DNA of 60,467 bases from Patescibacteria group bacterium (GCA_038061865.1 JBBTYI010000009.1:1-60467), one strand, 5' to 3'; positions 25,103 through 48,579 are shown, counted from the first letter of the stretch. The notes: generated from the sequence alone by a model not told the origin. A program made the numbers and translations.

Positions 25103-25239
25103 TGCACCTATAATACCAGAAACTAATTTAGATGACAATTCCCTTATTATGTCGTAAAATAAGACTTGTTGCGGCACACCTGTCGCAAAATGCATTGAGA
25201 TTGTACAACGTTAAGCACATCGCACAATCTCAATATCAA

Positions 25240-27688: not shown

Positions 27689-27732
27689 CCCCTATCAAAA
27701 ACCCCCGCCTAGGCGGGGGTTTTTGATAGGGG
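27689..27732. terminator. 21-bp perfect hairpin (cccctatcaaaaacccccgcc-ta-ggcgggggtttttgatagggg) at the tmRNA 3' end
   Basis: Perfect reverse complement over 21 bp with a 2-nt loop; abuts the tmRNA acceptor end. Confidence 0.6.
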
Positions 27733-28080
27733 TGGACTTGGGGGAAATCGAATCCCCGTCTGGAGGTTCATTTACACAAGCGCTACAAGTTTAGCCCGTC
27801 TTGTTTTAAGTAACCGCGTAAAAGACGGGCGAAATAGCGATTACTTGCTTTGAGGGTTGCGACCGGCGATCGGCAAAGCAACCAGATGCCGGAAGTTCCC
27901 GCTGATGACGTTGGTGACTGACTAGCGGGGTCGTCAGGCCAACGGCTACCTAAATGATGTTAGGCGGCAAACGCGAAATTTTGGTTTGCGTTTAGATTTT
28001 TGATTGTTGATTAAAGCGGTGACAATCATCCGCTACTTGCGCTGGTTATAAACGTACCGCCATCAAAGCCGGTCAAGCCC
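27731..28080 (-). ncRNA. ssrA: tmRNA (SsrA), about 350 nt, tag peptide (A)ANQNFAFAA
   Basis: Minus-strand read: 5' GGGCUUGACCGGCUUUGAUGGCGG resembles the consensus 5' GGGGCUGAUUCUGGAUUCGACGGG. The 3' end has a T-arm GGGGA-UUCGAUU-UCCCC and an acceptor strand CAAGUCC pairing with the 5' GGGCUUG. In frame is GCA AAC CAA AAU UUC GCG UUU GCC GCC UAA. An upstream TTGGAC-17-CATAGT promoter is present, and smpB is 1.8 kb away. Confidence 0.85.
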
Positions 28081-32687: not shown

Positions 32688-33257
32688 ATGAAGCACAAAA
32701 AACTCAACCAGAATTTTTTCGCCCGCCCAACGCTTCAAGTGGCCAGAGAGCTTTTGGGCAAGTTTTTAGTTCGTAAAATCGGCCAGCGCCAGATTGCCGC
32801 AATGATTACCGAAACCGAGGCCTATCGCGGGCCAAACGATCTGGCTTCGCACGCTTCGCACGGACCTGCCTGGCCGGCAGGCAGACGGACGCCGCGGACC
32901 GAAGTAATGTTCGGCCCGCCCGGCCACGCTTATATTTATCTGATTTACGGGATGTATCATTGCCTGAATATCGCCACGGAAAAGGAGGGCTACCCCGCCG
33001 CTGTCTTGATTCGTGGTGCTTCATTATTCCCTAAAACCTATAACCTAACACCTACCCTGAACGGGCCGGGGAAATTATGCCGTTTTTTAAAAATAGATAA
33101 AATGCTAAATGGGGATAATCTGACTATCAGTCCGCGGCTGTGGTTGGAGGATCGGGGCAACAAAATCAGACCCAATCAGATTAAAAGGACCAAAAGAATC
33201 GGGGTGGATTATGCCGGGCCATACAAAGACAAATTGTGGCGGTTTATGATAAAGTGA
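32688..33257 (+). CDS. DNA-3-methyladenine glycosylase (Mpg/AAG family)
   Basis: 189 aa; ARELLGKFLVRK...ITETEAYRG...GHAYIYLIYGMYHCLNIAT. Confidence 0.85.
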   Translation: MKHKKLNQNFFARPTLQVARELLGKFLVRKIGQRQIAAMITETEAYRGPNDLASHASHGPAWPAGRRTPRTEVMFGPPGHAYIYLIYGMYHCLNIATEKEGYPAAVLIRGASLFPKTYNLTPTLNGPGKLCRFLKIDKMLNGDNLTISPRLWLEDRGNKIRPNQIKRTKRIGVDYAGPYKDKLWRFMIK

Positions 33258-33266
33258 AGAATAACA

Positions 33267-34976
33267 ATGATCATCAAAGATCGGGTCAAAGAATTGGTGA
33301 ATCAGGCGGTAGCCGACACTGGGTTTGGAACGGTGGACTTTCAGGTGGAAAAACCGAAGAGTGACTTCGGGGATTATGCCGTCAATGCGGTGTTTGGATT
33401 GGCTAAGAAATTAAAAAAAACTCCGGGCGAGGTCGCCAGGCAACTGGCGGAGAAAATCAGTCAGAGTTTACCGGAAGAAATTGAGCAGGTGGAAGCGGTC
33501 GGGGGATACATTAATTTTTTCTTGAGCCGGCAATATCTGCAGAGTGCGCTTTCTGACATCGCAAGTCAGAAAAATTACGGGCGAAGTGAGGAATTAAAAG
33601 GCCAGACCGTGATGGTGGAATATACCGACCCCAATCCTTTTAAGCTATTCCATATCGGCCATCTGATGAGCAACGCCATTGGCGAGGCTATCGCCCGGCT
33701 TTACGAAGCCCAAGGAGCAAAAGTAATCCGCGCCAATTATCAGGGCGATATCGGGCTGCATGTGGCCAAAGCTATCTGGGGGACGCAAGGACAACTGCCG
33801 GGTGAGAGCGTCGGCTTGGCTGAGAAAGTAAAATTTTTGGGCGCCGCTTACGCCCGCGGCGCGGCCGCTTACGAAAACCAGCCGGAAACCAAGTCGGCTA
33901 TTGAGGAAATAAATGAAAAAATTTTTAATCGGAGCGACCCGGAAGTTAATCGTCTTTATCAAATCGGTCGGCGGTGGAGTTTAGAATATTTTGAAATAAT
34001 TTATGCCAAATTGGGTACTAAGTTTGACCGCTATTTTTTTGAAAGCGAAACCGCCTCGGATGGGCTAACTATCGTCCGCCAACATCCTGACGTTTTTCGG
34101 GAAAGCGCCGGAGCAATCATTTTCCCCGGCGAGCAGTACGGTTTGCACAATCGGGTGTTCATTAACGCGCGCGGCCTGCCCACCTATGAAACCAAAGAAC
34201 TGGGGCTGAACAAAAAAAAGTTTGAACTGTATCCGGAGCTGGCGCAATCGCTGATTATTACCGGCAACGAGATCAACGAATATTTTCGGGTTTTGCTGAA
34301 AACGATGGCACTGACCATCCCGGAGGCAGCGGCCAAAACCCGCCATATTGGGCACGGCATGCTGCGTCTGCCCGGGGGGAAACTGTCTTCGCGCACCGGC
34401 GAGGTGGTAACGGCGGAAGAGCTGATCGAGCAGGTAGTTGGGAAATTGCGCGAGATTGTCAGCCCGAAAAGTGGTCTAAGCGAGTGGGAACGGGAGACCA
34501 CCTATGAACCATTGGCTATCAGCGCCATCAAATATTCTATTCTCAAACAAAGCCCCGGCCATGATATTATTTTTGACTTTGACAAATCCCTATCCATCCG
34601 AGGCGATTCGGGTCCTTATTTGCAGTACACCTACGCCCGGCTGAACAGCATTCTGACTAAAGCGGGGGAAGCTGCGCCAAGCAGCAATTTTGCGCCGGAC
34701 CAACTGAAAGAAGAGTCCGAGCTCAAGCTAATCAAACAGCTGTTTGAACTGCCTAACGTCATCAGCGAGAGCTGCCAGAAAATCGCGCCCCAGCACCTAG
34801 TCTTGTACCTTTTTGAATTAGCCAATCTGGCCAACAATTTCTACGAGAAAATTCATATAATTGGGGATGAAAACACCGAACGCCTGACTGCTCGGCTGGT
34901 TTTGGTCAAAACCACGGCCCAAATGCTGAAAAGCGGCTTAACTCTTTTGGGTATCGGAGCGCTTGAAAAGATTTAG
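33267..34976 (+). CDS. argS: Arginyl-tRNA synthetase
   Basis: 569 aa; class I HIGH (FHIGHLMS); anticodon-binding C-domain. Confidence 0.95.
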   Translation: MIIKDRVKELVNQAVADTGFGTVDFQVEKPKSDFGDYAVNAVFGLAKKLKKTPGEVARQLAEKISQSLPEEIEQVEAVGGYINFFLSRQYLQSALSDIASQKNYGRSEELKGQTVMVEYTDPNPFKLFHIGHLMSNAIGEAIARLYEAQGAKVIRANYQGDIGLHVAKAIWGTQGQLPGESVGLAEKVKFLGAAYARGAAAYENQPETKSAIEEINEKIFNRSDPEVNRLYQIGRRWSLEYFEIIYAKLGTKFDRYFFESETASDGLTIVRQHPDVFRESAGAIIFPGEQYGLHNRVFINARGLPTYETKELGLNKKKFELYPELAQSLIITGNEINEYFRVLLKTMALTIPEAAAKTRHIGHGMLRLPGGKLSSRTGEVVTAEELIEQVVGKLREIVSPKSGLSEWERETTYEPLAISAIKYSILKQSPGHDIIFDFDKSLSIRGDSGPYLQYTYARLNSILTKAGEAAPSSNFAPDQLKEESELKLIKQLFELPNVISESCQKIAPQHLVLYLFELANLANNFYEKIHIIGDENTERLTARLVLVKTTAQMLKSGLTLLGIGALEKI

Positions 34977-35360
34977 CGTTGAGGCAAGCGCGAACGCCGC
35001 CGCGCCCAGCGTGTCCATCACCAAGTCCTGAACGGTATCGTCCAGGTCGCCCATGAAATAGACGCGGTAGCGGAAAACATCATAAATCGGCTGGCTTAAT
35101 TTTTTGTTGCCGACATATTCGGCCATTTCCCAAAACACCCCCACTGCCACCGTCAGCGCCACTATCGTCAAGACCCGCCGCGGTTGAGAAAGGCGGCTGA
35201 ATTCGCTATTGTAAAAAGAGGCTAAAAGCATCGCCACGAAAAAGCCGCCCAGAAAGTGGTAGGCCATGCTGATGGCCATTACCTCGCTTAAGTTCTCCAG
35301 TACGACGTACAGGTTGGAAACAAAAAGCGCGATTAGCGCCCAGAAGGCAAATTTAGACAT
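34938..35360 (-). CDS. Small polytopic membrane protein (VanZ-like?)
   Basis: The start was trimmed to MSKFAFWAL (140 aa, 4 TM). The upstream 125 codons of the listed ORF lie antisense to the ileS start. Confidence 0.4.
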   Translation of the reverse strand: MSKFAFWALIALFVSNLYVVLENLSEVMAISMAYHFLGGFFVAMLLASFYNSEFSRLSQPRRVLTIVALTVAVGVFWEMAEYVGNKKLSQPIYDVFRYRVYFMGDLDDTVQDLVMDTLGAAAFALASTLNLFKRSDTQKS

Positions 35361-35375
35361 ATCCCGGATACTACC

Positions 35376-38300
35376 ATGACATTGGATGATTTCAAAAAGA
35401 ACGAAGAGAAAATACTGAAATTTTGGGGGGACAGCAAAATTTTTGAAAAAAGTTTGGCGCAAAGAAAAGGCGCCAAGCCGTTTGTTTTTTATGAAGGTCC
35501 GCCCACCGCCAACGGCCTGCCCCATATCGGCCATCTCCTCACTCGCATCTTCAAGGACCTCTACGGCCGGTATAAAACTATGCGCGGCTATTACGTCCTG
35601 CGCCGGGCCGGCTGGGACACCCACGGCTTGCCGGTGGAGATTGAAGTGGAAAAGCAGCTGGGACTGAAAACTAAAAAAGACATAGAAGAATTCGGCATCG
35701 CCCGCTTCAACAAAAAGGCGAGAGAAAGCGCGCAAAAGTACAAGGCCGAATGGGAAAGAATGACCGAAAGGATGGGTTTTTGGCTGGACTTGGACAACCC
35801 CTATATCACTTACCGGCCCGATTATATTGAATCAGTTTGGGCGATAATCAAAAAAATTTGGGACAAGAAATTGCTTTACCAAGGCCACAAGGTGATACCT
35901 TTCTGCACCCGTTGCGGCACGCCGCTTTCCAGCCATGAAGTGGCCCAGGGATATGAGGACATTACCGAAACAGCGGTGATAGTAAAGTTAAAAATCAAAG
36001 AACCTTTAGAAGCTATAAGCCATAACCTAACACCTAACACCTATTTTCTGGCTTGGACAACGACCCCGTGGACTTTGCCGGGCAATGTCGCTTTGGCGGT
36101 AGGGGAAAGTATTAAGTATCTAATAGTAAGTATTAAGGGAGGAAATGAGAAATACGTTTTGGCGGAAGATCGGGCAGAAAAGGTGCTTAATGCCGAATAT
36201 GAGATACTTGATACCGTCTCTGGAAAAGACTTGGTCGGTTTGGAATACGAACCGCTGTTTGACGTTGCCGCGCTAAAATCAAAAAATTCTTACAAAGTTT
36301 ACCCGGCTGATTTTGTCACTACCGAGGAGGGCACTGGCATTGTCCATACGGCGGTGATGTACGGTGAGGAGGATTATGAACTAGGCAAAAAAGTCGGTTT
36401 GCCGACTCGCCATACCGTGGACGAGCAAGGGCGGTTCACTGCCGATGTCGCCGCTTTTTCCGGCCAATATGTCAAAGACGCCGAGCCAGGCATCGTGAAA
36501 TATCTGCGCGATAAAAACCGGCTGTTCAAAGAAGAACTCCACCTCCACACTTATCCTTTTTGCTGGCGCTGCCACACGCCATTGCTTTACTACGCCACCG
36601 ATTCGTGGTTCATCAAAATGTCCGCCCGGCGCCAGCAGCTATTGAAAAACAACCGCCAGATAAACTGGAAACCGAAGCACATGAAGGAAGGGCGGTTTGG
36701 CGAATTCATCAAAGAAACCAAGGATTGGGCCTTGAGCCGTAAGCGTTACTGGGGAACGCCGCTGCCGATTTGGCAATGCGCTAATAAACATCATCTGGTG
36801 GTCAGCGCGCTGGCCGATTTGGAAAGACATCGTTTTCGTCCAGCCAATACTTATTATCTGATCCGCCACGGCACCAGCACTAAAAATGTCGTGCCCGGCA
36901 AGGATATCATCTCTTCCAAACTGGAAAAGGATGCTTACGAACTGACTAGTCAAGGCCGCGCCGAGGTAAAAGAAACGGCCCGCCAGCTCAAACGGGCCAA
37001 CGGGGCGGACTTGATTATCAGCTCGCCGTTTTTGCGCACCAAACAAACCGCGCAGATTATTGCCGACTACTTGAACCAGCCGGTAAAAATTGACAAACGG
37101 CTGAAAGAAATAGATCTGGGGTCCGCTAACGAAGGCCGACTGTACGACGAAGCTATTCCGCCGGTGCCGGATTTTGAGACCAAACTTGACGACGGCGAGA
37201 GCCGGCACGATGTCAGAAGGCGGGTCTGGTCATTGATACGTGAGCTGGAAGAAAAATATTCCGGCAAAAAGATCATTTTGGTCAGCCACGGAGATCCCAT
37301 CTGGTTATTGGACGGGCTGTCACGCAATCTGGATGAGCCGGCCATGTTGTTGCATCGGGCACAGGATTATCTTAAAAAAGGCGGGGTCAGGAAAGTTACT
37401 TTTGCCAACTATCCGCGCAATGAAGATGGTGAAGTGGATCTGCACCGGCCGTATGTGGATGAGATAGCGCTGAAATGTCCCGAATGCAATGAAGCAATGC
37501 GCCGTGTACCCGACTTGATAGACGTTTGGTTTGATTCGGGCGCTATGCCGCTGGCCCAGTGGCATTACCCGTTTGAGAATAAAAAGTTAGTTGACAGCGG
37601 ACAACAGTATCCGGCCGATTTCATTGTTGAAGCCATTGACCAGACCCGGGGCTGGTTTTATACAATGCTGGCTATTGCCACCGCTTCGGGTCGCAAACCG
37701 CCTTATAAAAATGTGATGGTGCTCGGCCACACGCTGGATGAAAAGGGCCGCAAAATGTCCAAGTCCAAAGGCAATGTCATCATGGCGCACGACATTTTGG
37801 AACAGTTTGGCGCCGATGTTGTCCGTTGGTATCTGTTCACGCTGTCCGACCCGGCCGATGGCAAGCCGATCAGCCCTAAAGACATAGCACAAAAGTACCG
37901 GGGATTTTTCGGCACCTTGCAAAATACTTTACGCTTTTTTGAATTGTACGCCTCCTCGGCCAAACCCAGCGGCTCGCCTGAACCGCAGAGCGAATTAGAC
38001 CAGTGGCTCTTCGCCCGTTTGGCCCAACTGACTGCCACCGTCACAGAAAATCTGGACGCCTATGCACCCACTATCGCCGCCCGGGCGATTGAGGAGTTCG
38101 TGGTGGATGATTTGTCTAACTGGTGGGTCAGGCGGTCAAGAAAAAGATTCCAGCACCCGGTTAGTAATGAGGAACTGGTCTATGTCGCTTCAATTTTACG
38201 ATATGCGCTTTTGGAATTGGCAAAAATTATAGCTCTGTTTATACCCTTCACTGCCGAATGGCTGCATTCCGAACTGCACCGCGGCCAGACGGCCGGGACG

Positions 38301-38864
38301 GAGAGCGTGCATTTGCATGATTGGCCGCTGACGCAACTACCAACTACTAATCATCAACTACTAACAACTAATATGGAGGAGGTCAGAAAGTTTGTGGCGG
38401 CGGGATTGGGAGAAAGAAAAGCGAAAAATATAAAAGTTCGGCAGCCGCTGGCCGGGGCTACGCTCAAACGGGCGGAAAAATTTGCCGGCGGGCTGGAGGA
38501 ATTGATTAAAGATGAGCTGAATATCAAGACAATCAATTATAATGCCGATGCTGAAGCCGTAATTGCCCTGGATGAGCGTATCACCGAGGATTTAATCCGG
38601 GAGGGTTGGGCGCGAGAAGCGATGCGCCAAATTCAAGATATGCGCAAAGAAGTTAAGTATAAGTTAAATGAAAAGGTATTCGCCGCCTGGGAAACGGACA
38701 ATGCTGAACTGGCCACTGCCATGAAAAATTTCAGTTCTACCATTACCACCGACACTTTGCTCAAATCCTTCATTCGCGGGCATCAACTAAACCTAAAATA
38801 CGATGTCGAAAAAGATTTCAACCTAGCTGAAGGAGTAAAGATTTGGTTAGGGGTGAGGAAATAA
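35376..38864 (+). CDS. ileS: Isoleucyl-tRNA synthetase carrying an inserted histidine-phosphatase (PGAM-like) domain
   Basis: 1162 aa; HIGH PHIGHLLTR, KMSKS RKMSKSKGN, CP1 editing domain. Between WQCANKHH and DLHRPYVD lie about 200 extra residues. Confidence 0.9.
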   Translation: MTLDDFKKNEEKILKFWGDSKIFEKSLAQRKGAKPFVFYEGPPTANGLPHIGHLLTRIFKDLYGRYKTMRGYYVLRRAGWDTHGLPVEIEVEKQLGLKTKKDIEEFGIARFNKKARESAQKYKAEWERMTERMGFWLDLDNPYITYRPDYIESVWAIIKKIWDKKLLYQGHKVIPFCTRCGTPLSSHEVAQGYEDITETAVIVKLKIKEPLEAISHNLTPNTYFLAWTTTPWTLPGNVALAVGESIKYLIVSIKGGNEKYVLAEDRAEKVLNAEYEILDTVSGKDLVGLEYEPLFDVAALKSKNSYKVYPADFVTTEEGTGIVHTAVMYGEEDYELGKKVGLPTRHTVDEQGRFTADVAAFSGQYVKDAEPGIVKYLRDKNRLFKEELHLHTYPFCWRCHTPLLYYATDSWFIKMSARRQQLLKNNRQINWKPKHMKEGRFGEFIKETKDWALSRKRYWGTPLPIWQCANKHHLVVSALADLERHRFRPANTYYLIRHGTSTKNVVPGKDIISSKLEKDAYELTSQGRAEVKETARQLKRANGADLIISSPFLRTKQTAQIIADYLNQPVKIDKRLKEIDLGSANEGRLYDEAIPPVPDFETKLDDGESRHDVRRRVWSLIRELEEKYSGKKIILVSHGDPIWLLDGLSRNLDEPAMLLHRAQDYLKKGGVRKVTFANYPRNEDGEVDLHRPYVDEIALKCPECNEAMRRVPDLIDVWFDSGAMPLAQWHYPFENKKLVDSGQQYPADFIVEAIDQTRGWFYTMLAIATASGRKPPYKNVMVLGHTLDEKGRKMSKSKGNVIMAHDILEQFGADVVRWYLFTLSDPADGKPISPKDIAQKYRGFFGTLQNTLRFFELYASSAKPSGSPEPQSELDQWLFARLAQLTATVTENLDAYAPTIAARAIEEFVVDDLSNWWVRRSRKRFQHPVSNEELVYVASILRYALLELAKIIALFIPFTAEWLHSELHRGQTAGTESVHLHDWPLTQLPTTNHQLLTTNMEEVRKFVAAGLGERKAKNIKVRQPLAGATLKRAEKFAGGLEELIKDELNIKTINYNADAEAVIALDERITEDLIREGWAREAMRQIQDMRKEVKYKLNEKVFAAWETDNAELATAMKNFSSTITTDTLLKSFIRGHQLNLKYDVEKDFNLAEGVKIWLGVRK
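36807..37409 (+). other. In-frame histidine-phosphatase domain insertion within ileS (aa about 478-678)
   Basis: Motifs LIRHGTS, LTSQGRAEV...ARQL, DLIISSPFLRTKQTA, EIDLGSANEG and ILVSHGD match the PGAM-branch histidine phosphatase superfamily. Confidence 0.7.
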
Positions 38865-38867
38865 TCT

Positions 38868-39398
38868 ATGCGCACTCAAGCGGTGATTCTCAAAAAAATC
38901 CCGGTCAAGGAATATGACGCGCTGGTGGTTTGCTATACCGACATCGCCGGCAAGCAGACTTATCAGGCCAAAAGTGTGTTGAAACCAACCTCGGTGCAGA
39001 GCGGACATTTAGATTTGTTTAATCTGGTGGACTTTGCGCTGGTAGAGGGCAATGGGCACGCGATTATCACCGGAGCGCACTCGTTGAGAGCTTATTCGCG
39101 CTTAAAAAATAATCTGGCGGCGCTGGCGGCGGCCTATTTTTTGCTGGAATGTTTTGACAAACTGATTTTTGCCGGCGAGCCGGACCCGAAATTATGGCGG
39201 TTTCTGACGGCGCGGCTGGAGTTTTATGATCAGGTTGCCGAAAATGCCGCCGCTGATTGGTTCTTAATTATCAAATCAACCAAAACAGAACTGCTTAAAA
39301 CCCTCGGCTACGACGCCACCGCCTCAATCGAGGAACTGACCGGCGGCCATTTCCGGTCGTTACAGTTTGCCAAAAAAGTGGTAGGATATACTTTGTAG
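38868..39398 (+). CDS. recO: DNA repair protein RecO (short form)
   Basis: 176 aa; N-terminal OB fold AVILKKIPVKEYDALVVCYTDIAGK. Confidence 0.65.
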   Translation: MRTQAVILKKIPVKEYDALVVCYTDIAGKQTYQAKSVLKPTSVQSGHLDLFNLVDFALVEGNGHAIITGAHSLRAYSRLKNNLAALAAAYFLLECFDKLIFAGEPDPKLWRFLTARLEFYDQVAENAAADWFLIIKSTKTELLKTLGYDATASIEELTGGHFRSLQFAKKVVGYTL

Positions 39399-39403
39399 TA
39401 TTT

Positions 39404-41188
39404 ATGGACTTCCAAGTAACTCCACTTGAACCAACGGCGCCAATACCGCCGCCATCTTTTTGGAAACGCCGCCGCGGCAAAATTATCGGCGGGGCGGCTG
39501 GTTTGCTGGTTTTGTTTCTGGTCTGGTCAATCTTTCTGGGCCGCAGCAATTTCAGCGAGGCCAAAGTTGATTTTAAGATTGACGGCCCGACCGAGATTTC
39601 CTCGGGTGAACTGGTAAGCTACAAAATCAGTTACAAAAATGGCAATAAAGCCGGGCTGAACGACGTCAAGCTGACTTTTTTCTACCCGCCCGATGCCGTG
39701 CCGGTGCGCGACGGCAACATTGCCAGCGCCGTTAACGAAAGTATAATTATCGGCGGTCTGGCCGGCGGCGAAGCCGGTGAGAGGATTATCACCGCCTATT
39801 TGGTCGGCGACCGAGGCAACATCAAAACGGCTAAGGCAGTCTTGGTCTTCAAACCGGAAAACGTCCAGTCCAGTTTCAAAAAAGAAACTTCCGTGGCGAC
39901 CACTATCACCCAACTCGCCATTCCGCTGACTTTAGTCGCCCCGCCCAGCGTTATCAACGGCCAAAACATCACTTATCTGGTTGACTACCGCAATCAGGCC
40001 CAGCAGAATTTCAATGATTTACGCTTCGCCGTCAAGTATCCAGACGGTTTCCGTTTTTCGAACGCCACGCCCGCGCCCAGCGCCGGCCAAAATATTTGGG
40101 ACCTCAAAACTTTGAAGCAGAGCCAGGGAGCTCGCATCACCATTCAGGGCGTTTTGCGCGGCGAGGAACTTTCCAGCAAATTGGTGTCTTTGGTTTTGCA
40201 AAAAAAAGTCACTACGCCAAACGGTGACGTCTATGTTGATTTTGAAAAAGTGGAAGCCACTTCGGTTATCGCCAACCCTTTCTTAAGCGTCAGTTTGAAC
40301 GTCAACGACTCGGCCAATTACACCGCTCACCTGGGAGACGATCTGCAGTATCTGATAAATTTCAAAAACAGCAGCAATGTTGACATCAGCAATCTGACTT
40401 TGACGGCAACGCTGGAGGGGGTAATGTTTGACCCGGCCACGGTCCGCTCCAACGCTTTTTTTGACGGCCGGAACAATACCGTCAGCTGGAACGCCTCGGT
40501 AATACCGGAGTTGGCTCTCTTACGGCCGGGCCAAAGCGGTCAGGCCGCTTTCGCCGTCCGTTTGAAAAACAGTTTCAGCGGCGGCACCGGCTCGGCTAAT
40601 TCTTTAGTTAAAGTCACCGCCCGCCTGGAATCGCCGAATATTCCGGCTAATTTAGACATTGATAAGCTCGCCGCCGATGACCAATTGATAACCCGGATTT
40701 CTTCGGTGCCCAGTTTTGACCAAAAGATTTTATTGAGTGATTCGGCCTTCGGCTCCAGCGGTCCCTTCCCGCCCAAAGTCAACCAAAAAACCGTTTTCAC
40801 GGTCCGCTGGCAATTAGTCAATCCCGCCAATGACCTGTCGCCGGCCAAAGTCACGGCCGTCCTGGCGCCGGGAGTGAAATGGGAAAACCGCGTCCGCAGC
40901 GGAGCCAACCAGCCCCCGCCTGGTTACGATTCCCGAACCAGCGCCATAACTTGGGATTTGAGCACTTTGCCTGGCGGCAGCGGTGTCGGTTTGCCCAAGT
41001 ATGAGGCGTTTTTCCAGATTTCAATCACCCCGTCGGTCAACCAGGTCGGCCAGGCACCGCCGCTTTTGAAGAACACCCGTTTTGACGGCATCGACGCCTT
41101 TACCAAAGAAAATATTTCCCGTAGTGTTCAAGACAGCACTACCTATAATATTGATGACAGCAATGAAAACGGAAGCGTTGAAAAATAA
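39404..41188 (+). CDS. Large surface protein with DUF11/CARDB-like beta-sandwich repeats
   Basis: 594 aa; N-terminal TM anchor; repeated segments of the form xGdxxtYxIxYKNxGxxxLndVxLT. Confidence 0.5.
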   Translation: MDFQVTPLEPTAPIPPPSFWKRRRGKIIGGAAGLLVLFLVWSIFLGRSNFSEAKVDFKIDGPTEISSGELVSYKISYKNGNKAGLNDVKLTFFYPPDAVPVRDGNIASAVNESIIIGGLAGGEAGERIITAYLVGDRGNIKTAKAVLVFKPENVQSSFKKETSVATTITQLAIPLTLVAPPSVINGQNITYLVDYRNQAQQNFNDLRFAVKYPDGFRFSNATPAPSAGQNIWDLKTLKQSQGARITIQGVLRGEELSSKLVSLVLQKKVTTPNGDVYVDFEKVEATSVIANPFLSVSLNVNDSANYTAHLGDDLQYLINFKNSSNVDISNLTLTATLEGVMFDPATVRSNAFFDGRNNTVSWNASVIPELALLRPGQSGQAAFAVRLKNSFSGGTGSANSLVKVTARLESPNIPANLDIDKLAADDQLITRISSVPSFDQKILLSDSAFGSSGPFPPKVNQKTVFTVRWQLVNPANDLSPAKVTAVLAPGVKWENRVRSGANQPPPGYDSRTSAITWDLSTLPGGSGVGLPKYEAFFQISITPSVNQVGQAPPLLKNTRFDGIDAFTKENISRSVQDSTTYNIDDSNENGSVEK

Positions 41189-42467
41189 CTTGCTGGAGAA
41201 AATTGTTTCGCTGTGCAAACGGCGGGGTTTTATCTTCCCCGGCTCGGAGCTTTACGGGGGACTGGCCGGTTTTTGGGATTACGGGCCGCTGGGCGTGGAG
41301 TTGAAAAACAACATTAAAAAACAGTGGTGGCAAGACATGGTTTACCGGCGGGACAATATTGTTGGACTGGACGCCGCCATCATTATGAACCCGCAGGTCT
41401 GGGAGGCCTCGGGACACACCGACAGTTTCACCGACCCGCTGGTGGAATGCAAGCTTTGCCACAAAAGATTCCGAGCTGACCAGGAAGATAAAATCAAAGA
41501 ACATGAAGACGAGCACAAGCAAACAGTGGAGTGGACCGAACCCAAAACTTTCAATTTGTTGACTGAAGTTTATCTCGGCGTTACCGAACCAAAGGAAAAA
41601 ACTTATCTGCGCGGCGAGATAACCCAGGGGGTTTTCGTCAATTTCGCCAATGTCGTTTCCTCCACCCGGGTCAAACTTCCTTTTGGCATTGCCCAGATCG
41701 GCAAGGCCTTCCGCAACGAAATCACGCCCGGCAATTTTACCTTCCGCAGCCGGGAGTTTGAGCAGATGGAGCTGGAATATTTTATTAAGCCCGACGAAAA
41801 AGAAGCCGGGAAGGTTTTTGATTTTTGGAAAAAAGAACGGCTGGCTTGGTATGCCGGTCTGGGCATCAGCCAAGAAAATTTGCGGTTCCGCGAACACGCC
41901 GCTGACGAGCGCGCTCATTACGCCCGTTTTGCCGAAGATATTGAATACCACTCGCCTTTCGGCTGGAAAGAATTTGAAGGCATCCATCACCGCGGCGATT
42001 GGGATCTAAGCCGGCATAAATTGGCCTACCAGGACAGTGAAACAGGAGAGGAATATGTGCCTTGGGTGATAGAGACCTCCGGGGGAGTGGACCGGGCAGC
42101 CTTGTTTTTTCTGCTGGACGCCTATTATGAGGACGGCGAACGGATAGTTTTGAAGCTCAATCCCAAATTGGCGCCCTATAAGGCGGCGGTCTTTCCACTG
42201 GTTGCCAACAAACCGGAGCTGGTCAAAAAAGCCCGCGAGATTTATGATGAACTAAGAAAACATTTTACCGTTGCTTGGGACGACCGGGGCAACATCGGCA
42301 AAAGATACTACGCGCAGGACGAAATCGGCACGCCGTTTTGCATTACGGTTGATTATCAGACCTTGGAAAACGAGAGTGTCACCACCCGCGACCGTGACAC
42401 GATGGAACAAGGACGTGTCAAAATAGAATCACTGGTTGATTGCCTTCAAAAGAAACTGGGTCATTAG
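41163..42467 (+). CDS. glyQS: Glycyl-tRNA synthetase (class II dimeric)
   Basis: The start was chosen at MKTEALKNN. FPGSELYGGLAGFWDYGPLG motif 1; anticodon-binding C-terminus. Confidence 0.9.
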   Translation: MKTEALKNNLLEKIVSLCKRRGFIFPGSELYGGLAGFWDYGPLGVELKNNIKKQWWQDMVYRRDNIVGLDAAIIMNPQVWEASGHTDSFTDPLVECKLCHKRFRADQEDKIKEHEDEHKQTVEWTEPKTFNLLTEVYLGVTEPKEKTYLRGEITQGVFVNFANVVSSTRVKLPFGIAQIGKAFRNEITPGNFTFRSREFEQMELEYFIKPDEKEAGKVFDFWKKERLAWYAGLGISQENLRFREHAADERAHYARFAEDIEYHSPFGWKEFEGIHHRGDWDLSRHKLAYQDSETGEEYVPWVIETSGGVDRAALFFLLDAYYEDGERIVLKLNPKLAPYKAAVFPLVANKPELVKKAREIYDELRKHFTVAWDDRGNIGKRYYAQDEIGTPFCITVDYQTLENESVTTRDRDTMEQGRVKIESLVDCLQKKLGH

Positions 42468-44544: not shown

Positions 44545-44565
44545 AGAAAGATAGTGATCGGTCCC

Positions 44566-44595
44566 GACATCATGCCGGGATTTTTTATTTCCCCC
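44566..44595 (+). terminator. Intrinsic terminator (tcccg-acatcatgc-cggga followed by ttttttattt)
   Basis: Stem with a T-run after the 43009 gene. Confidence 0.45.
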
Positions 44596-44616
44596 CGCCT
44601 GTGCTATTTTAAATTT

Positions 44617-45903
44617 ATGGAAACCAAAATGCCATTTTCTTTTTTCACCTTCCCCAACGGCCTCCGCTTGATTACCGTGCCGGTAACCAGCACCGACAGC
44701 GTAACGGTTTTGGTGATGGTCGGCACTGGTTCAAGATACGAAAACAAAGAGATTAACGGCATTTCCCACTTTCTGGAACACATGATGTTCAAAGGCACGG
44801 CCAAGCGGCCCAAAGTCACCGATATCGCCCTGGAGCTGGACACCATCGGCGCCGAGTACAATGCTTTCACGGGCAAGGAATACACCGGCTACTATGTCAA
44901 ATGCGCCGCCGAAAAAGTGGATACCGCCCTGGACGTGATTTCCGATATTTTCCAAAACTCAAAACTTGACGCCGAGGAGATGGAGCGGGAGCGGGGGGTA
45001 ATTATTGAAGAAATCAATATGTATCTAGACACGCCGGCCCGCTATGTCGGCGACCTGTTTGAAGAACTGATGTACGGCGACCAGCCGCTGGGCTGGCACA
45101 TCACCGGCCCCAAGGAAGTTATCCGCAAATTAAGCCGCGGCGATTTTGTCAAATACTTCACCACTCACTATTTTGATAAAAATACCGTCATCGCCGTCGC
45201 CGGCAATATTGACCCGGGGCAAATCAAGCAAAAAGTTTCCAGTTATTTTTCAGACGTTCGCACCAACCAAAAACTGGAAGCGCTCAAGGTAAAAGAAGAA
45301 CAAGACCGGCCACGCCTGAAAATTCACAACAAAAAGACCGACCAGACCCACTTTATTATTGGTTTCCGGGCCTTTGACTATTTCAGCGATAAAGAGGCAG
45401 TGTTGAATGTGATGTCTCTGGTATTGAGCGCCGGTTTCAGCTCGCGGCTGTGGAACGAGTTCCGCGATAAACGCGGTTTATCTTACTATATCCGGGCGAC
45501 TAACAATAGTTACGCCGATGCCGGCTATTTTGAAATTAGCGCCGGAGTGGACAACACCCGCTTGACCGAAGCGCTTGACGCCGCTCTGGCGGAATGTAAA
45601 AAGTTAGCCGACCAAGCGGTCTCCGCAGCCGAACTTAAAAAAGTCAAAGATTACGCCCACGGCAAGCTGGCAATCGGTCTGGAAACTTCGGACGAGCTGG
45701 CTTCTTTTTACGCCGACCAGGAATTGCTTAAGCGGGAAATTCTGACGCCCGAGCAGAAACTGGCGAAAATTGACGCTGTGACTGCCGAACAGCTCCAAGC
45801 GGCGGCCCAAGAGATTTTCAGACCGGAACGCCTCAATCTGGCATTGATCGGTCCGTTCGAGCAAGACGATATCAAGATTAACAAAATTATCAATTCGTGG
45901 TAA
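44617..45903 (+). CDS. M16-family zinc peptidase (insulinase/pitrilysin-like)
   Basis: The start was chosen at METKMPF. Inverted zincin motif HFLEHMMFKGT; two M16 domains. Confidence 0.85.
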   Translation: METKMPFSFFTFPNGLRLITVPVTSTDSVTVLVMVGTGSRYENKEINGISHFLEHMMFKGTAKRPKVTDIALELDTIGAEYNAFTGKEYTGYYVKCAAEKVDTALDVISDIFQNSKLDAEEMERERGVIIEEINMYLDTPARYVGDLFEELMYGDQPLGWHITGPKEVIRKLSRGDFVKYFTTHYFDKNTVIAVAGNIDPGQIKQKVSSYFSDVRTNQKLEALKVKEEQDRPRLKIHNKKTDQTHFIIGFRAFDYFSDKEAVLNVMSLVLSAGFSSRLWNEFRDKRGLSYYIRATNNSYADAGYFEISAGVDNTRLTEALDAALAECKKLADQAVSAAELKKVKDYAHGKLAIGLETSDELASFYADQELLKREILTPEQKLAKIDAVTAEQLQAAAQEIFRPERLNLALIGPFEQDDIKINKIINSW

Positions 45904-47103: not shown

Positions 47104-48579
47104 ATGGGCAAGTTTTACATTACAACCTCAATCGCTTATACCAATACCTTCCCTCACATCGGGTATGCCTTAGAGCTGGTTCAAGCTGATGTTTTGGCCC
47201 GCCATCAGGAACAACTAGGTAAAGAGGTTTTCTTTTTGACCGGCACCGATGAGCATGGTGCTAAAATTGCTCGAGCAGCGAAGGATGAAGGCAAAAAGCT
47301 CCGAGATTTTGTTGACCTAATTTCAGATGAATTTCGCCAGCTGGCCAAAATTTTAAATATCTCCAACAACGATTTCATCCGTACTACTGACCGGACCCGT
47401 CACTGGCCGGCTGTGGTTAAGATTTGGCAAGCTCTGGGAAAAGCCGGCGATCTGTATAAAGCCGATTATCACGGCCATTATTGTGTCGGTTGCGAAAGAT
47501 TTATCAAACCCAGCGAACTAATCAATGGCGAATGCCCGCTCCACAAACAAAAACCGGAAATTATTGAAGAAGAAAACTGGTTCTTCCGGCTGACTAAATA
47601 CAAAAAAGAGGTTAAGCAGAAAATTGCCAGCGGCGAATTAAAAATCCTACCGGCCAGCCGCGCCAATGAAGTACTGGGGTTAATTGCTGATGCTGAAGAT
47701 GTCAGTTTCTCTCGACCGAGCAAGGATTTGAAATGGGGAATACCGGTGCCGGGAGATTCCACTTCCACCGTTTATGTTTGGGCGGATGCTTTAACTAACT
47801 ATCTTTCGGCACTGGATTACGCTAATAATGGCGAAAAGTTCCAAAAATATTGGCCGGCGGATATTCAGCTGATTGGCAAAGACATTTTGCGCTTCCACGC
47901 TATTATCTGGCCGACAATGTTGTTATCGGTCGGCTTACCTTTGCCTAGGAGTATTTATGTACACGGCTTCATTACAGTAGAAGGCGAAAAAATCTCCAAA
48001 AGTTTAGGCAACGTCATTGACCCGTTTCAGCTAGTGAAAAAATACGGTGTGGACCCGGTGCGCTACTATCTCCTGCGCGAAATACCGTCCAACGAAGACG
48101 GCGACTTTTCCGAGACCAAATTAGTTGAGCGCTATAACGGTGACTTAGCCAATAATCTCGGAAACTTGGTCAGCCGGGTGGCTAAATTAATTGAGACAAA
48201 GCTGAACGGCGAATTGATTTTTGAGGAAAAGTTTTTGAATAAAGGGGTCAAAGCGAAAATTGCAACTGTGCAAGCGGCTTATGAAAAATATATCGCTGAC
48301 TTCAAACTGCATGAGGCTATCGGTCAGGTCTGGGAATTGTTCACCTACGCCAACGGCTATATTGACGGTAAAAAACCCTGGGCCGACCCTGACCCCACCC
48401 ACTTATTGCAAACCCTGACCGGCAGTGTGACCTTGCTGACCGCCGGTGCTAAGCTGGTCTGGCCGTTCCTGCCGGAGACCGCCCAAAAGATTTTCGCTGC
48501 TCTTGGTCAAACCCTTATCAGTAAAGAAACGGTTTACCGCGTGATCAAAACCAAGCCGTTGTTCCCGAGACTAAAATAA
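47104..48579 (+). CDS. metG: Methionyl-tRNA synthetase (short form without the C-terminal dimerisation domain)
   Basis: 491 aa; HIGH-like FPHIGYALE, KISKSLGN (KMSKS), zinc knuckle CxxC...CPLH. Confidence 0.95.
   Translation: MGKFYITTSIAYTNTFPHIGYALELVQADVLARHQEQLGKEVFFLTGTDEHGAKIARAAKDEGKKLRDFVDLISDEFRQLAKILNISNNDFIRTTDRTRHWPAVVKIWQALGKAGDLYKADYHGHYCVGCERFIKPSELINGECPLHKQKPEIIEEENWFFRLTKYKKEVKQKIASGELKILPASRANEVLGLIADAEDVSFSRPSKDLKWGIPVPGDSTSTVYVWADALTNYLSALDYANNGEKFQKYWPADIQLIGKDILRFHAIIWPTMLLSVGLPLPRSIYVHGFITVEGEKISKSLGNVIDPFQLVKKYGVDPVRYYLLREIPSNEDGDFSETKLVERYNGDLANNLGNLVSRVAKLIETKLNGELIFEEKFLNKGVKAKIATVQAAYEKYIADFKLHEAIGQVWELFTYANGYIDGKKPWADPDPTHLLQTLTGSVTLLTAGAKLVWPFLPETAQKIFAALGQTLISKETVYRVIKTKPLFPRLK

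What the first reader, a model, noticed from the sequence alone, without database searches (positions are those of the whole stretch)
36807..37409. IleRS with a complete histidine-phosphatase (PGAM-like) domain inserted in frame
Every hallmark of the histidine phosphatase superfamily (RHG-T/S, LT..G..Q/E, SSP..R...TA, E.D.G..EG, VSHG) lies between the IleRS WxC zinc-knuckle and the conserved DLHRPYVD segment. That is where canonical IleRS has only about 40-60 residues. The reading frame is continuous, and both flanks are bona fide IleRS sequence. This is therefore neither an intein (no Cys/Ser...His-Asn splice motifs) nor a gene fusion artefact. A catalytic-looking phosphatase module embedded in an essential aminoacyl-tRNA synthetase has not been described as far as I know. 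It could act on a phospho-substrate, edit a mischarged or phosphorylated product, or be a moonlighting module.
Basis: partly seen in the sequence, partly recalled or inferred. Interest (0 to 1): 0.8.

Follow-up and report, generated by a model that had tools for sequence, protein, structure and literature searches.

The report
Phosphatase domain built into IleRS
The isoleucyl-tRNA synthetase of this uncultured Patescibacteria bacterium, like that of hundreds of related species, carries a complete and apparently active histidine-phosphatase enzyme spliced into one of its surface loops; the domain came from the gene next door, and nobody has described it.

Summary
ORF 35376..38864 (+, 1162 aa) is a type-2 IleRS (TIGR00392, 878 bits). 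A ~200-aa His_Phos_1 domain (PF00300, E 5.6e-28) sits in frame at aa 488-687 (nt 36837..37436). It lies inside the Zn-binding CP3 subdomain, between C468 and C701/C704.

It is not an artefact. All 120 best homologues carry it at the same site, as do 74 of 80 species-representative loci fetched. The catalytic set R497/H498/R554/E578/H638 is invariant.

New here: relatives have a free-standing 189-200-aa copy of the same phosphatase between argS and an insert-less ileS. Others have it fused to the ArgRS C-terminus, fused to YrdC/TsaC, or present in 2-3 or more copies in IleRS, including at a second site. The window's clade therefore captured its neighbour gene as an internal domain.

No characterised subfamily cut-off is met (dPGM, CobC, PspA, SixA). 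The substrate is unknown.

My best guess is an active phosphohydrolase tethered to adenylate-forming tRNA enzymes, with PPi as the most logical shared ligand. A neutral "captured housekeeping enzyme" reading remains a serious rival.

No paper was found that describes it, although the proteins are in public databases (e.g. UniProt A0A0G0XP42).

The parts
35376..38864 (+). ileS: type-2 isoleucyl-tRNA synthetase, 1162 aa, with an embedded phosphatase domain (NCBI MEK7507082.1, named 'class I tRNA ligase family protein')
   Evidence: ORF. TIGR00392 scores 877.8 bits against a cut-off of 621.4. Best PDB match is 8c8u IleRS2, E 1.4e-254. Accession.
35376..36836 (+). IleRS N-terminal body (aa 1-487). 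Contains the first half of the Rossmann fold with PHIGH (aa 49-53), the CP core Zn site (C177/C180/C396/C399), the CP1 editing domain (WTTTPWTLPGN 227-237; GTGIVHTAVMYGEEDY 319-334), CP2, the CP2-CP3 linker (TKDWALSRKRYWG 448-460) and the start of CP3 with C468.
   Evidence: Domain names follow PMC7191050 and PMC7955072.
36837..37436 (+). Inserted histidine-phosphatase (PGAM-like, His_Phos_1) domain, aa 488-687. The Pfam match covers aa 494-645 (nt 36855..37310).
   Evidence: PF00300 E 5.6e-28. Gap against insert-less IleRS. AF2 domain model pLDDT 93.4, pTM 0.91. Foldseek hits to PDB phosphatases, TM 0.75-0.80.
36864..36869 (+). Codons for R497-H498 (RHG motif; H498 is the predicted phospho-accepting nucleophile)
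   Evidence: Invariant in 56 aligned full-length homologues. Intact in every complete domain copy of the 185 scored.
37035..37037 (+). Codon for R554 (SPFxR motif, phosphate pocket)
   Evidence: Invariant.
37107..37109 (+). Codon for E578 (predicted general acid/base)
   Evidence: Invariant in 56 IleRS homologues. E or D in all 185 copies.
37287..37289 (+). Codon for H638 (SHG motif, second pocket histidine)
   Evidence: Invariant. 184 of 185 copies have it.
36777..36779 (+). C468: first half of the CP3 zinc knuckle. Here it reads WQCANKHH; the family consensus is WxCxxC.
   Evidence: The CP3 of T. thermophilus IleRS binds zinc (PMC7191050).
37476..37487 (+). C701-P-E-C704: second half of the CP3 zinc knuckle, downstream of the insert
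37437..38861 (+). IleRS C-terminal body (aa 688-1162). Contains DLHRPYVD, DVWFDSG (716-722), KMSKS (793-797), the anticodon-binding domain (PF08264, 875-1025) and the type-2 C-terminal domain (DUF5915).
33267..34976 (+). argS (ArgRS, 569 aa): upstream member of the conserved argS-[hisphos]-ileS-recO block. In relatives the phosphatase is free-standing downstream of argS or fused to the ArgRS C-terminus.
   Evidence: Pfam. Synteny.
38868..39398 (+). recO-like gene: downstream member of the same conserved block (context only)
   Evidence: Pfam RecO_N. Same order in L086, L063 and L075.

Best explanation
SHOWN. The window encodes a bifunctional-looking enzyme. It is a complete type-2 IleRS into whose surface-exposed, zinc-binding CP3 subdomain a whole ~200-aa PGAM-like histidine phosphatase has been inserted. 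The same phosphatase subfamily is restricted, as far as seen, to Patescibacteria. In relatives it is a free-standing gene packed tightly between argS and an insert-less ileS. In other relatives it is fused to the ArgRS C-terminus or to YrdC/TsaC, or it occurs two or more times inside IleRS. The window's clade therefore took its neighbour gene in as an internal domain and no longer has the separate copy at that locus.

INFERRED, about 0.8. The domain is catalytically active. H498 attacks a phosphoryl group held by R497, R554 and H638. E578 protonates the leaving group. The phospho-histidine is then hydrolysed, as in other branch-1 enzymes.

INFERRED, about 0.45. Tethering is functional. All three partner families (IleRS, ArgRS, TsaC) split ATP into an adenylate plus PPi and feed tRNA. 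The phosphatase would then act on a phosphorylated ligand common to them.

The most logical candidate is pyrophosphate, about 0.15-0.2 on its own. Removing it pulls the reversible adenylation step forward. AMP or another nucleotide phosphate is the alternative. The varied attachment points argue that proximity or stoichiometry matters, not a fixed geometry. These points are CP3, a second IleRS site before the anticodon domain, and the C-termini of ArgRS and YrdC. Tandem copies fit the dimeric habit of this fold.
For: Architecture.

Lineage-wide:
- 120 of 120 best homologues (51-66% identity) carry PF00300, and the insert is 208-226 aa in all.
- 199 stretches in the one-genome-per-species collection encode a relative. 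In 74 of the best 80 the domain is flanked by IleRS segments.
- The names span Yanofsky-, Nealson-, Uhr-, Harrison-, Azam-, Ryan- and Colwellbacteria and Paceibacterota.

Selection:
- The insert is 43% identical on average, against 59% for the IleRS body. R497, H498, S550, R554, E578, R616 and H638 are nevertheless invariant.
- Of 185 domain copies, 146 read RHREH, 30 RHRDH, 8 are N-truncated fragments and 1 is RHRES. Every copy in multi-copy proteins is intact.

Fold: pLDDT 93.4. Top PDB hits are GpgP, PspA, PhoE and CobC. In the full-length model the insert and its linkers have pLDDT 93-96.

Origin and synteny:
- Free-standing gene between argS and a 952-962-aa ileS in L051, L063, L073, L084 and L046.
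- ArgRS fusions P0265, P0389 and P0390 sit in the same block.
- There is only one copy per locus and no remnant or second copy in the window.

Other fusions: YrdC::His_Phos lies next to the CCA-adding enzyme, TGT and TruD. IleRS homologues have 2-3 or more copies and a second insertion site.

PPi logic: TC-AMP synthesis is energetically unfavourable, is reversed by PPi and is strongly activated by pyrophosphatase (PMC6004061).

Site: the CP2-CP3 linker lines the tRNA CCA-end pocket (PMC7955072). CP3 varies in topology between IleRSs and serves as a docking surface in human IARS1.
Against: - No substrate is established. No NCBIfam equivalog cut-off is met, and the nearest structures are generic small-molecule phosphomonoesterases.
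- I found no precedent for a branch-1 histidine phosphatase hydrolysing inorganic PPi.
- The conserved block also holds recO, a surface protein and an M16 peptidase. Gene order alone therefore says little about function. The argS and ileS associations are not independent, because the two genes are neighbours.
- Other synthetases in the window (LeuRS, MetRS, a class II enzyme) and its own YrdC lack the domain. A general PPi-removal benefit might be expected to spread more widely.
- The relative orientation of the two active sites could not be measured, because model coordinates and PAE are not available.
Confidence: 0.45

Rival explanations
1. Neutral capture ('ratchet'). The phosphatase is a housekeeping metabolic enzyme unrelated to translation, for example an archaeal-type dPGM-like mutase or a phosphoserine or sugar-phosphate phosphatase. 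It happened to lie between argS and ileS in a tightly packed genome. Loss of a stop codon fused it to ArgRS in some lines, and a local rearrangement dropped it into the tolerant CP3 loop of IleRS in others. Once the free copy was lost, the embedded copy had to be kept. Catalytic conservation then reflects its own independent job.
For: - The free-standing gene is separated from its neighbours by only 1-5 nt or overlaps them, so fusion is mechanically easy.
- The block is functionally mixed: recO, a DUF11 surface protein and an M16 peptidase.
- The best NCBIfam hit is archaeal dPGM, and a Picrophilus dPGM is 37% identical.
- The closest structures are metabolic phosphatases.
- CP3 is structurally plastic.
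- The attachment geometry is not conserved.
Against: - Every fusion partner seen for this subfamily is an ATP-to-adenylate-plus-PPi enzyme of the tRNA pathway (IleRS, ArgRS, YrdC). The YrdC fusion is at a different locus.
- A second, separate insertion site in IleRS and repeated copy gain suggest selection for attachment to IleRS.
- dPGM, CobC and PspA cut-offs are missed by a wide margin: 75-98 against 225, 57-91 against 163, and 55-75 against 350.
- At least one Parcubacterium is reported with a cofactor-independent PGM (figure legend of PMC5220378).
Confidence: 0.3
2. tRNA-directed phosphatase. The domain removes a phosphate from tRNA itself, so that the attached synthetase or t6A enzyme receives a usable substrate. 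The phosphate could be a 3'-phosphate or 2',3'-cyclic-phosphate-derived end left by a nuclease, or another tRNA phosphate.
For: - All partners belong to tRNA pathways.
- CP3 follows the CP2-CP3 linker that lines the tRNA CCA-end pocket.
- YrdC::His_Phos sits beside a CCA-adding enzyme with an HD domain, plus TGT and TruD.
- Histidine-phosphatase domains joined to nucleic-acid proteins exist: the PRK07238 RNase H/acid phosphatase family hits at E 7e-21, and TFIIIC tau55 (2yn0) hits weakly.
Against: - No RNA-end phosphatase is known in this fold family, from my own knowledge.
- The attachment points do not converge on the acceptor end. They are the ArgRS C-terminus after the anticodon-binding DALR domain, a second IleRS site before the anticodon domain, and TsaC, which makes TC-AMP without holding the tRNA 3' end.
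- The domain also exists free-standing and as tandem-only proteins.
Confidence: 0.1
3. Non-catalytic module. The domain has become a structural, dimerisation or ligand-sensing (regulatory) appendage of IleRS and no longer turns over substrate.
For: - PGAM-like proteins are usually dimers, so an embedded copy could dimerise IleRS. Tandem copies exist.
- Linkers are predicted with high confidence.
- Non-catalytic histidine-phosphatase domains are known, such as TFIIIC tau55 and the flea salivary proteins of PMC10728186.
Against: The full catalytic set is kept in essentially every copy across about 180 diverged sequences, although the rest of the domain drifts to 33-54% identity. Pseudo-enzymes normally lose such residues.
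Confidence: 0.05
4. Artefact or mobile element: an assembly chimera, a frameshifted gene fusion or an intein.
For: None beyond the unusual architecture. Two of 80 related loci (L019, L071) show a frame change near the domain.
Against: - The window has a continuous frame and flat GC across the junctions.
- The same site and size recur in 120 proteins from NCBI, JGI, ENA and Logan assemblies. One cluster alone was seen on 16 contigs.
- 72 of 80 GTDB loci are in a single frame.
- There is no Hint/intein domain.
- The flanks align residue for residue with insert-less IleRS.
Confidence: 0.01

Closest known systems
Small branch-1 histidine phosphatases of the PGAM-like fold: PhoE/YhfR (1h2e, 1ebb), phosphoserine phosphatase PspA/iPSP1 (4ij5), glucosyl-3-phosphoglycerate phosphatase Rv2419c (4pz9), alpha-ribazole phosphatase CobC (6e4b)
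   Same: They share the fold (Foldseek TM 0.75-0.80, probability 1.00), a size of about 200 aa, the RHG...R...E...H catalytic set and the D-x-R-L-x-E...G..EG and GES motifs.
   Different: Identity is only 22-27%. No family-specific cut-off is met. The domain has its own loop after RHG (S..LE.D.Y.LT) and a C-terminal Y-P-x-x-G strand. Here it is embedded in, or fused to, tRNA-pathway enzymes instead of free-standing.
Archaeal-type cofactor-dependent phosphoglycerate mutase (NCBIfam NF038349; e.g. Picrophilus oshimae, P0042)
   Same: It is the best-scoring NCBIfam model for the insert (E 7e-26), with about 37% identity to the Picrophilus protein over about 60% of the query.
   Different: The insert scores 91-94 bits against a cut-off of 225. 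A true member (P0042) scores 232. Mutase activity is untested.
Type-2 (eukaryote-like) bacterial IleRS, e.g. Priestia megaterium IleRS2 (8c8u) and Thermus thermophilus IleRS (1ile)
   Same: The body aligns along its full length (E 1e-254). It has HIGH, KMSKS, the CP1 editing motifs, two Cys clusters as in TtIleRS and the DUF5915 C-terminal domain.
   Different: About 200 extra residues split the CP3 zinc knuckle. The known structures have a 4-5-residue connection at that point.
IleRS with an N-acetyltransferase domain (NCBIfam NF040702 'ileS_w_GNAT')
   Same: It is a curated precedent for an IleRS that carries an extra enzymatic domain. One relative found here (P0374) has both His_Phos and a GNAT domain.
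   Different: The window protein has no GNAT domain and scores 344 bits against a cut-off of 1999. The extra domain is of a different kind, and I did not check the GNAT position in that family.
CP1 editing domain of class Ia synthetases, and the 'leucine-specific domain' of LeuRS
   Same: Both are hydrolytic or accessory domains inserted into loops of the Rossmann fold of a class I synthetase (general knowledge; domain scheme).
   Different: Those are ancient and universal within their enzymes, and they act on aminoacyl-adenylate or aminoacyl-tRNA. This one is a lineage-specific phosphoryl-transfer enzyme with a free-living ancestor still present in sister genomes.
Sua5 (YrdC domain + linker + SUA5 domain) of t6A synthesis
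   Same: The Patescibacteria YrdC::His_Phos proteins place the phosphatase where Sua5 has its SUA5 domain. In Sua5 the linker binds the PPi product.
   Different: The SUA5 domain is a Rossmann-like fold with no phosphatase motifs. The window's own YrdC (56559..57251) is single-domain.
Bifunctional RNase H / acid phosphatase (PRK07238, Rv2228c type)
   Same: A branch-1 histidine phosphatase is joined to a nucleic-acid enzyme. The phosphatase half hits the insert at E 7e-21.
   Different: That is an end-to-end fusion, not an internal insertion. The partner is different, and the score of 75 bits is far below the cut-off of 326.

Membership tests
Histidine phosphatase superfamily, branch 1 (Pfam PF00300, PGAM-like) | Sequence match above Pfam's gathering score | tested here: met
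   98.4 bits against 21.7 in the full protein, and 102.1 bits for the excised segment.
Histidine phosphatase superfamily, branch 1 (Pfam PF00300, PGAM-like) | RHG motif with the nucleophilic histidine, plus the second Arg and second His of the phosphate pocket and an acidic proton donor | tested here: met
   R497, H498, R554, E578 and H638 are present. They are invariant in 56 homologues and kept in every complete copy of the 185 scored.
Histidine phosphatase superfamily, branch 1 (Pfam PF00300, PGAM-like) | Alpha/beta fold of the family | tested here: met
   AF2 pLDDT 93.4, pTM 0.91. 297 PDB chains at E<=0.001; the top hits are all family members, TM 0.75-0.80.
Histidine phosphatase superfamily, branch 1 (Pfam PF00300, PGAM-like) | Phosphoryl transfer through a phospho-histidine intermediate | not testable with these tools
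   Needs enzyme assays and an H498A control.
Isoleucyl-tRNA synthetase (TIGR00392; type 2) | Equivalog model above its curated cut-off | tested here: met
   877.8 bits against 621.4, matched in two stretches on either side of the insert.
Isoleucyl-tRNA synthetase (TIGR00392; type 2) | Class I signature motifs HIGH and KMSKS, plus the CP1 editing-site motifs | tested here: met
   PHIGH 49-53, KMSKS 793-797, WTTTPWTLPGN 227-237 and GTGIVHTAVMYGEEDY 319-334. All are invariant or nearly so in homologues.
Isoleucyl-tRNA synthetase (TIGR00392; type 2) | Charges tRNA-Ile | not testable with these tools
   No second ileS is in the 60-kb window. The rest of the genome was not available.
Cofactor-dependent phosphoglycerate mutase (NF038349 archaeal type; TIGR01258) | Equivalog or subfamily model above its cut-off | tested here: not met
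   Insert: 91-94 bits against 225, and 17.9 against 81.7. Free-standing relatives: 75-98 against 225.
Alpha-ribazole phosphatase CobC (TIGR03162) | Equivalog model above its cut-off | tested here: not met
   57-61 bits against 162.9. Free-standing relatives: 61-91.
Phosphoserine phosphatase PspA (NF045917) | Equivalog model above its cut-off | tested here: not met
   55-60 bits against 350.
Phosphohistidine phosphatase SixA (TIGR00249) | Equivalog model above its cut-off | tested here: not met
   28-32 bits against 74.5. Only the N-terminal ~75 residues match.
IleRS with GNAT domain (NF040702) | Model above its cut-off, and a GNAT domain present | tested here: not met
   343.8 bits against 1999. 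No acetyltransferase Pfam hit in the window protein.
Intein | Hint/intein splicing domain interrupting a host protein | tested here: not met
   Pfam finds no intein/Hint family. The whole insert is accounted for by one His_Phos fold.

The most novel reading that the evidence does not exclude
This PGAM-like subfamily would be a previously unrecognised accessory catalytic module of adenylate-forming tRNA enzymes in Patescibacteria. It would act either as a built-in pyrophosphatase or nucleotide phosphatase that drives amino-acid and TC-AMP activation, or as a tRNA-end phosphatase. On this reading it was recruited repeatedly to IleRS (two sites, one to several copies), ArgRS and TsaC because local removal of a phosphorylated product or block raises charging efficiency in these energy-poor, minimal cells. 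It would be the first phosphoryl-transfer domain shown to work inside an aminoacyl-tRNA synthetase.
Probability: 0.35. Interest if true: 0.85.

Novelty: new variant of a known kind. Interest (0 to 1): 0.66.

Why it matters
Aminoacyl-tRNA synthetases are among the most conserved enzymes known. Their accessory domains (editing, tRNA-binding, eukaryotic signalling appendages) have each opened a field.

Here an intact enzyme of an unrelated chemistry sits inside the catalytic core of an essential class I synthetase. It has been kept under selection across a large radiation of uncultured bacteria. The evolutionary intermediates are still visible: a free gene next door, an end-to-end fusion to ArgRS, and internal insertions in one or several copies.

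This has four consequences.
- It provides a natural 'Rosetta stone' that ties an uncharacterised phosphatase subfamily to adenylate-forming tRNA enzymes.
- It yields a directly testable hypothesis: PPi or nucleotide-phosphate removal, or tRNA repair, coupled to charging.
- It shows that CP3 of IleRS tolerates a 200-residue domain, which is useful for engineering.
- It reveals an annotation problem, because NCBI's pipeline demotes these proteins to 'class I tRNA ligase family protein'.

If the neutral-capture rival is right, it is still a clean case of how an essential enzyme can pick up an unrelated domain in reduced genomes.

Tried and rejected
- Short query (aa 455-720). It returned only proteins under 470 aa and no self-hit, which at first made the architecture look nearly unique (one 210-aa fragment, P0008). 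The full-length query corrected this.
- Genome scan with the mixed alignment A1. It failed for lack of a conserved 7-10-column stretch. It was repeated with closer inserts (A3). That biases the 199 hits towards proteins with the exact motif [VI]SHGDPLW[LI], so free-standing and divergent forms are under-sampled.
- Neighbour-joining tree of 151 domain copies. Free-standing forms, with the ArgRS fusion nested among them, group mostly at one end and embedded forms at the other. The two are interleaved, however, and some 'free' entries are probably contig-end fragments. The number of insertion events is therefore not resolved.
- Search for a remnant of a free-standing copy, or a second copy, in the window (tblastn). 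None was found. The 400-nt gap between argS and ileS is occupied by a minus-strand membrane-protein gene.
- Rfam scan for a leader RNA upstream of ileS. It found only the tmRNA.
Model coordinates and PAE are not exposed, so the distance between the two active sites could not be measured.
- Literature searches found nothing on this architecture. One search found no precedent for PPi hydrolysis by a branch-1 enzyme. Searches did not settle whether Parcubacteria lack a soluble pyrophosphatase.
- Rejected readings: intein, assembly chimera and pseudo-enzyme (see the rival explanations).
Full report
WHAT IS THERE

The region lies in one uninterrupted ORF, 35376..38864 on the + strand, 1162 aa. Pfam splits the class I synthetase family PF00133 into two stretches. 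Between them it places His_Phos_1 (PF00300) at aa 494-645, with E 5.6e-28 and 98 bits against a gathering score of 21.7. The excised segment alone gives E 4e-29.

NCBIfam identifies the host as IleRS: TIGR00392 scores 877.8 bits against a cut-off of 621.4. The best solved relatives are type-2 IleRSs, namely Priestia megaterium IleRS2 (8c8u, E 1e-254) and Thermus thermophilus 1ile. The alignment to 8c8u stops at chain residue 478 and resumes at 483, while the query jumps from 486 to 684. Aligning the window protein with insert-less IleRS of related Parcubacteria shows a clean insertion of about 200 residues, aa 488-687 = nt 36837..37436.

The host is otherwise intact:
- PHIGH at 49-53 and KMSKS at 793-797.
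- The editing-site motifs at 227-237 and 319-334.
- The DVWFDSG strand.
- Two cysteine clusters: C177/C180/C396/C399 and C468...C701/C704.

Published IleRS structures name the segment after the CP2-CP3 linker (yeast 453-ARDWNVSRNRYWG-465; here TKDWALSRKRYWG, 448-460) the CP3 subdomain. They report that CP3 of T. thermophilus IleRS carries a zinc-binding motif. They also report that CP3 topology differs between IleRSs and that the CP2-CP3 linker lines the pocket for the tRNA CCA end (PMC7191050; PMC7955072). The phosphatase therefore splits the zinc knuckle of CP3. GC content is flat across the junctions.

IS IT REAL AND MORE THAN CHANCE?

Yes. The full-length protein retrieves itself (NCBI MEK7507082.1, on a 60467-nt contig, i.e. 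this window). It also retrieves 119 further cluster representatives at 51-66% identity from NCBI, JGI, ENA and Logan assemblies. Every one has PF00300 among its precomputed domains. In my alignment the insert is present in all 120, at the same site, and is 208-226 aa long. One homologous cluster (UniProt A0A0G0XP42) was seen on 16 contigs.

In the one-genome-per-species collection, 199 stretches matching [VI]SHGDPLW[LI] encode a relative. Of the best 80 loci, 74 have the domain flanked by IleRS segments on the same strand. 72 of these are in a single frame, and L019 and L071 show a frame change. Record names span Yanofskybacteria, Paceibacterota, Nealson-, Uhr-, Harrison-, Azam-, Ryan- and Colwellbacteria and Spechtbacterales. 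This excludes a chimera. No intein family is detected.

IS THE DOMAIN A LIVE ENZYME?

The insert evolves faster than its host: mean identity to the window is 43%, against 59% for the IleRS body. Even so, R497, H498, S550, R554, E578, R616 and H638 are invariant in 56 aligned full-length proteins.

Across 185 domain copies from all architectures the five catalytic positions read as follows:
- RHREH in 146 copies.
- RHRDH in 30 copies.
- Missing only through N-terminal truncation in 8 copies.
- RHRES in 1 copy.

Each copy in multi-copy proteins is intact. An AF2 model of the insert has pLDDT 93.4 and pTM 0.91. It superposes on small PGAM-like phosphatases at TM 0.75-0.80 and 22-27% identity: Rv2419c GpgP, Hydrogenobacter PspA, PhoE and CobC. 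In the full-length model (pLDDT 84.8, pTM 0.71) the insert and both linkers score 93-96. This pattern is that of an enzyme under purifying selection, not a decayed passenger. That it actually turns over substrate remains an inference.

WHERE IT CAME FROM

A profile of the domain finds 554 cluster representatives at E<=1e-30 in 1.84 billion proteins. The best 150 fall into a few architectures:
- IleRS with one copy. This is the majority.
- IleRS with adjacent tandem copies at the same site (P0247, P0257, P0296, P0287, P0350). The fragment P0242 has three to four copies.
- IleRS with a second copy at a different site, between the KMSKS/stem-contact region and the anticodon-binding domain (P0244, P0258, P0259, P0286).
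- ArgRS with the domain at its C-terminus (P0265).
- YrdC/TsaC with the domain at its C-terminus (P0001-P0003).
- Proteins made only of two tandem copies (P0280, P0343, P0351, P0370).
- Many free-standing ~190-aa proteins.

The six loci that lack an embedded copy are decisive. In L051, L063 and L073 the order is argS, a 189-194-aa phosphatase gene, then a 960-961-aa insert-less ileS. The genes are separated by a few nucleotides or overlap. L084 (P0004, Staskawiczbacteria) has the same order. L046 has the gene just upstream of an insert-less ileS. L075 has argS, the phosphatase and recO, with ileS elsewhere.

The ArgRS fusions lie in the same block: L086 reads argS::hisphos, recO, a DUF7619 protein, a class II synthetase and an M16 peptidase. 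L087 reads argS::hisphos followed by ileS. The window has the same block: argS 33267..34976, ileS, recO 38868..39398, a DUF11/DUF7619 protein, a class II synthetase and, at 44554..45903, an M16 peptidase.

No locus holds both an embedded and a free copy, and the window has only the embedded one. The simplest history is one ancestral neighbour gene that was either left free, read through from argS, or moved about 1.4 kb into the CP3 loop of ileS. A rough neighbour-joining tree is compatible with this but does not resolve the number of events.

WHAT IT DOES

No characterised subfamily claims it. Scores against archaeal dPGM, CobC, PspA, GpmB and SixA are all far below the curated cut-offs. This holds for the insert and for the free-standing relatives, whereas a true Picrophilus dPGM passes its model.

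The only functional handles are the partners. Every fusion partner seen (IleRS, ArgRS, YrdC/TsaC) converts ATP into an adenylate plus PPi and serves tRNA. The YrdC fusion is at an unrelated locus, next to the CCA-adding enzyme, TGT, a queuosine-salvage gene and TruD. The attachment points differ: CP3, a second IleRS site, and two C-termini. This suggests that proximity or stoichiometry matters, not a precise geometry. The tandem copies are easily explained by the dimeric habit of this fold (my own knowledge).

Among the ligands shared by the partners, ATP would be harmful to destroy and AMP wasteful. PPi removal would be useful, because adenylation is reversible. For TsaC/Sua5 the literature states that TC-AMP formation is unfavourable, is reversed by PPi and is strongly stimulated by pyrophosphatase. 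It also states that the Sua5 linker binds PPi (PMC6004061).

I therefore commit to an active phosphohydrolase tethered to adenylate-forming tRNA enzymes that clears a shared phosphorylated product. The probabilities I give are:
- About 0.8 for 'active'.
- About 0.45 for 'functionally coupled'.
- About 0.15-0.2 for PPi specifically.

The weak points are plain:
- I found no precedent for PPi hydrolysis by a branch-1 enzyme.
- The conserved gene block is functionally mixed.
- argS and ileS are neighbours, so those two associations are not independent.
- LeuRS, MetRS, a class II synthetase and YrdC in this same window lack the domain.

The main rival (about 0.3) is neutral capture of a housekeeping metabolic phosphatase or mutase, kept because the free copy was lost. 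A tRNA-end phosphatase (about 0.1) fits the CP3 position near the CCA pocket but not the other attachment points. A non-catalytic role (about 0.05) is contradicted by the conserved catalytic residues.

COMPARISON WITH WHAT IS KNOWN, AND NOVELTY

Both parts are members of well-known families: PF00300 branch 1 and type-2 IleRS. All sequence and fold criteria are met, and the activities are untested.

The combination is not in the literature I could search. The proteins have been public since the 2015 groundwater genomes (KKS26589.1 / A0A0G0XP42). They carry automatic PF00300 hits, and NCBI often names them only 'class I tRNA ligase family protein'.

The nearest precedents are IleRS with a GNAT domain (NF040702, not met here), the CP1 editing domain and other CP insertions of class Ia synthetases, Sua5, and the RNase H/acid-phosphatase fusion PRK07238. 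I rate it a new variant of a known kind: a synthetase with an accreted domain, but one with an unprecedented chemistry, an internal position and a visible evolutionary path. Interest is 0.66.

A synthetase specialist would be surprised by it, and it gives a testable link between phosphate chemistry and tRNA charging. The function is open, however, and a neutral explanation is not excluded.

Noticed in passing
window 34938..35361 (- strand): The 400-nt space between argS and ileS is not empty. It holds a minus-strand gene for a small hydrophobic protein of about 141 aa (MSKFAFWALIALFVSNLYVV...). Its probable ATG is at 35361, 15 nt upstream of the ileS start. The 265-aa ORF listed at 34938..35735 is an over-extension from a TTG inside ileS. 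Relatives have the phosphatase gene, or nothing, at this position.
   Followed up: partly
window 36771..36800 (aa 466-475): The first half of the CP3 zinc knuckle reads WQCANKHH here. Almost all homologues have WxCxxC, so the window protein has lost one of the four cysteines (His472 or His473 might substitute). The second half (C701-P-E-C704) is intact.
   Followed up: partly
window 37098..37190 (aa 575-605); homologues P0128, P0132, P0138, P0164 and others: Most embedded copies have a conserved D-H-G-x-x-C-E-G-K-x-H-x-x-C motif in the cap region after the catalytic Glu. This could be a metal site or a disulfide. The window protein (DLGSANEGRLYDEAIPP) and the free-standing proteins lack it.
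   Followed up: partly
proteins P0244, P0258, P0259, P0286 (second site); P0247, P0257, P0296, P0287, P0350, P0242 (tandem): Some Patescibacteria IleRSs of 1380-1470 aa carry two to four catalytically intact copies of the same phosphatase. The copies are either adjacent in CP3 or include one at a second site just before the anticodon-binding domain.
   Followed up: partly
protein P0374 (1066 aa): This IleRS relative has an IS200-like Y1 transposase domain (aa 340-461) inside the editing-domain region. It also has a His_Phos domain (680-854) and a C-terminal GNAT acetyltransferase domain. It may be a heavily decorated or disrupted gene.
   Followed up: no
L086 6001..8070 (P0265); L087 6001..8163 (P0390); P0389: These ArgRS proteins carry the same phosphatase fused to their C-terminus. 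There are three clusters, 49-88% identical to each other, and they lie in the same syntenic block as the window. In L086 ileS is absent from the block.
   Followed up: yes
L081 1964..3292 (P0002); window 56559..57251: YrdC/TsaC::His_Phos fusions put the phosphatase where Sua5 has its SUA5 domain. They lie beside a CCA-adding enzyme, TGT, a queuosine-salvage gene and TruD. The window's own YrdC is a plain single-domain protein of 230 aa.
   Followed up: partly
window 33267..34976, 41082..42467, 47104..48579, 49817..52144: Five synthetase genes lie within 19 kb: ArgRS, IleRS, a class II enzyme with an HGTP anticodon domain, MetRS and LeuRS. Only IleRS carries the phosphatase.
   Followed up: partly
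window 27730..28080 (- strand) and 25132..26178 (+): A tmRNA gene (tag peptide ANQNFAFAA; Rfam 116.6 bits) lies about 1.5 kb from a tyrosine recombinase of the XerC/D or phage-integrase type.
   Followed up: no
window 35376..38864; database names: NCBI's annotation pipeline names many of these proteins 'class I tRNA ligase family protein' or 'hypothetical protein' instead of isoleucine--tRNA ligase. The cause is presumably that the insert disturbs the naming rules.
   Followed up: partly
L084 1..558 and L087 5324..6004: A small amino-acid-kinase-family gene (PF00696, 185-226 aa) directly precedes argS in two loci that have the free or ArgRS-fused phosphatase. It is absent upstream of argS in the window, where a methylpurine-DNA glycosylase gene lies at 32688..33257.
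   Followed up: no
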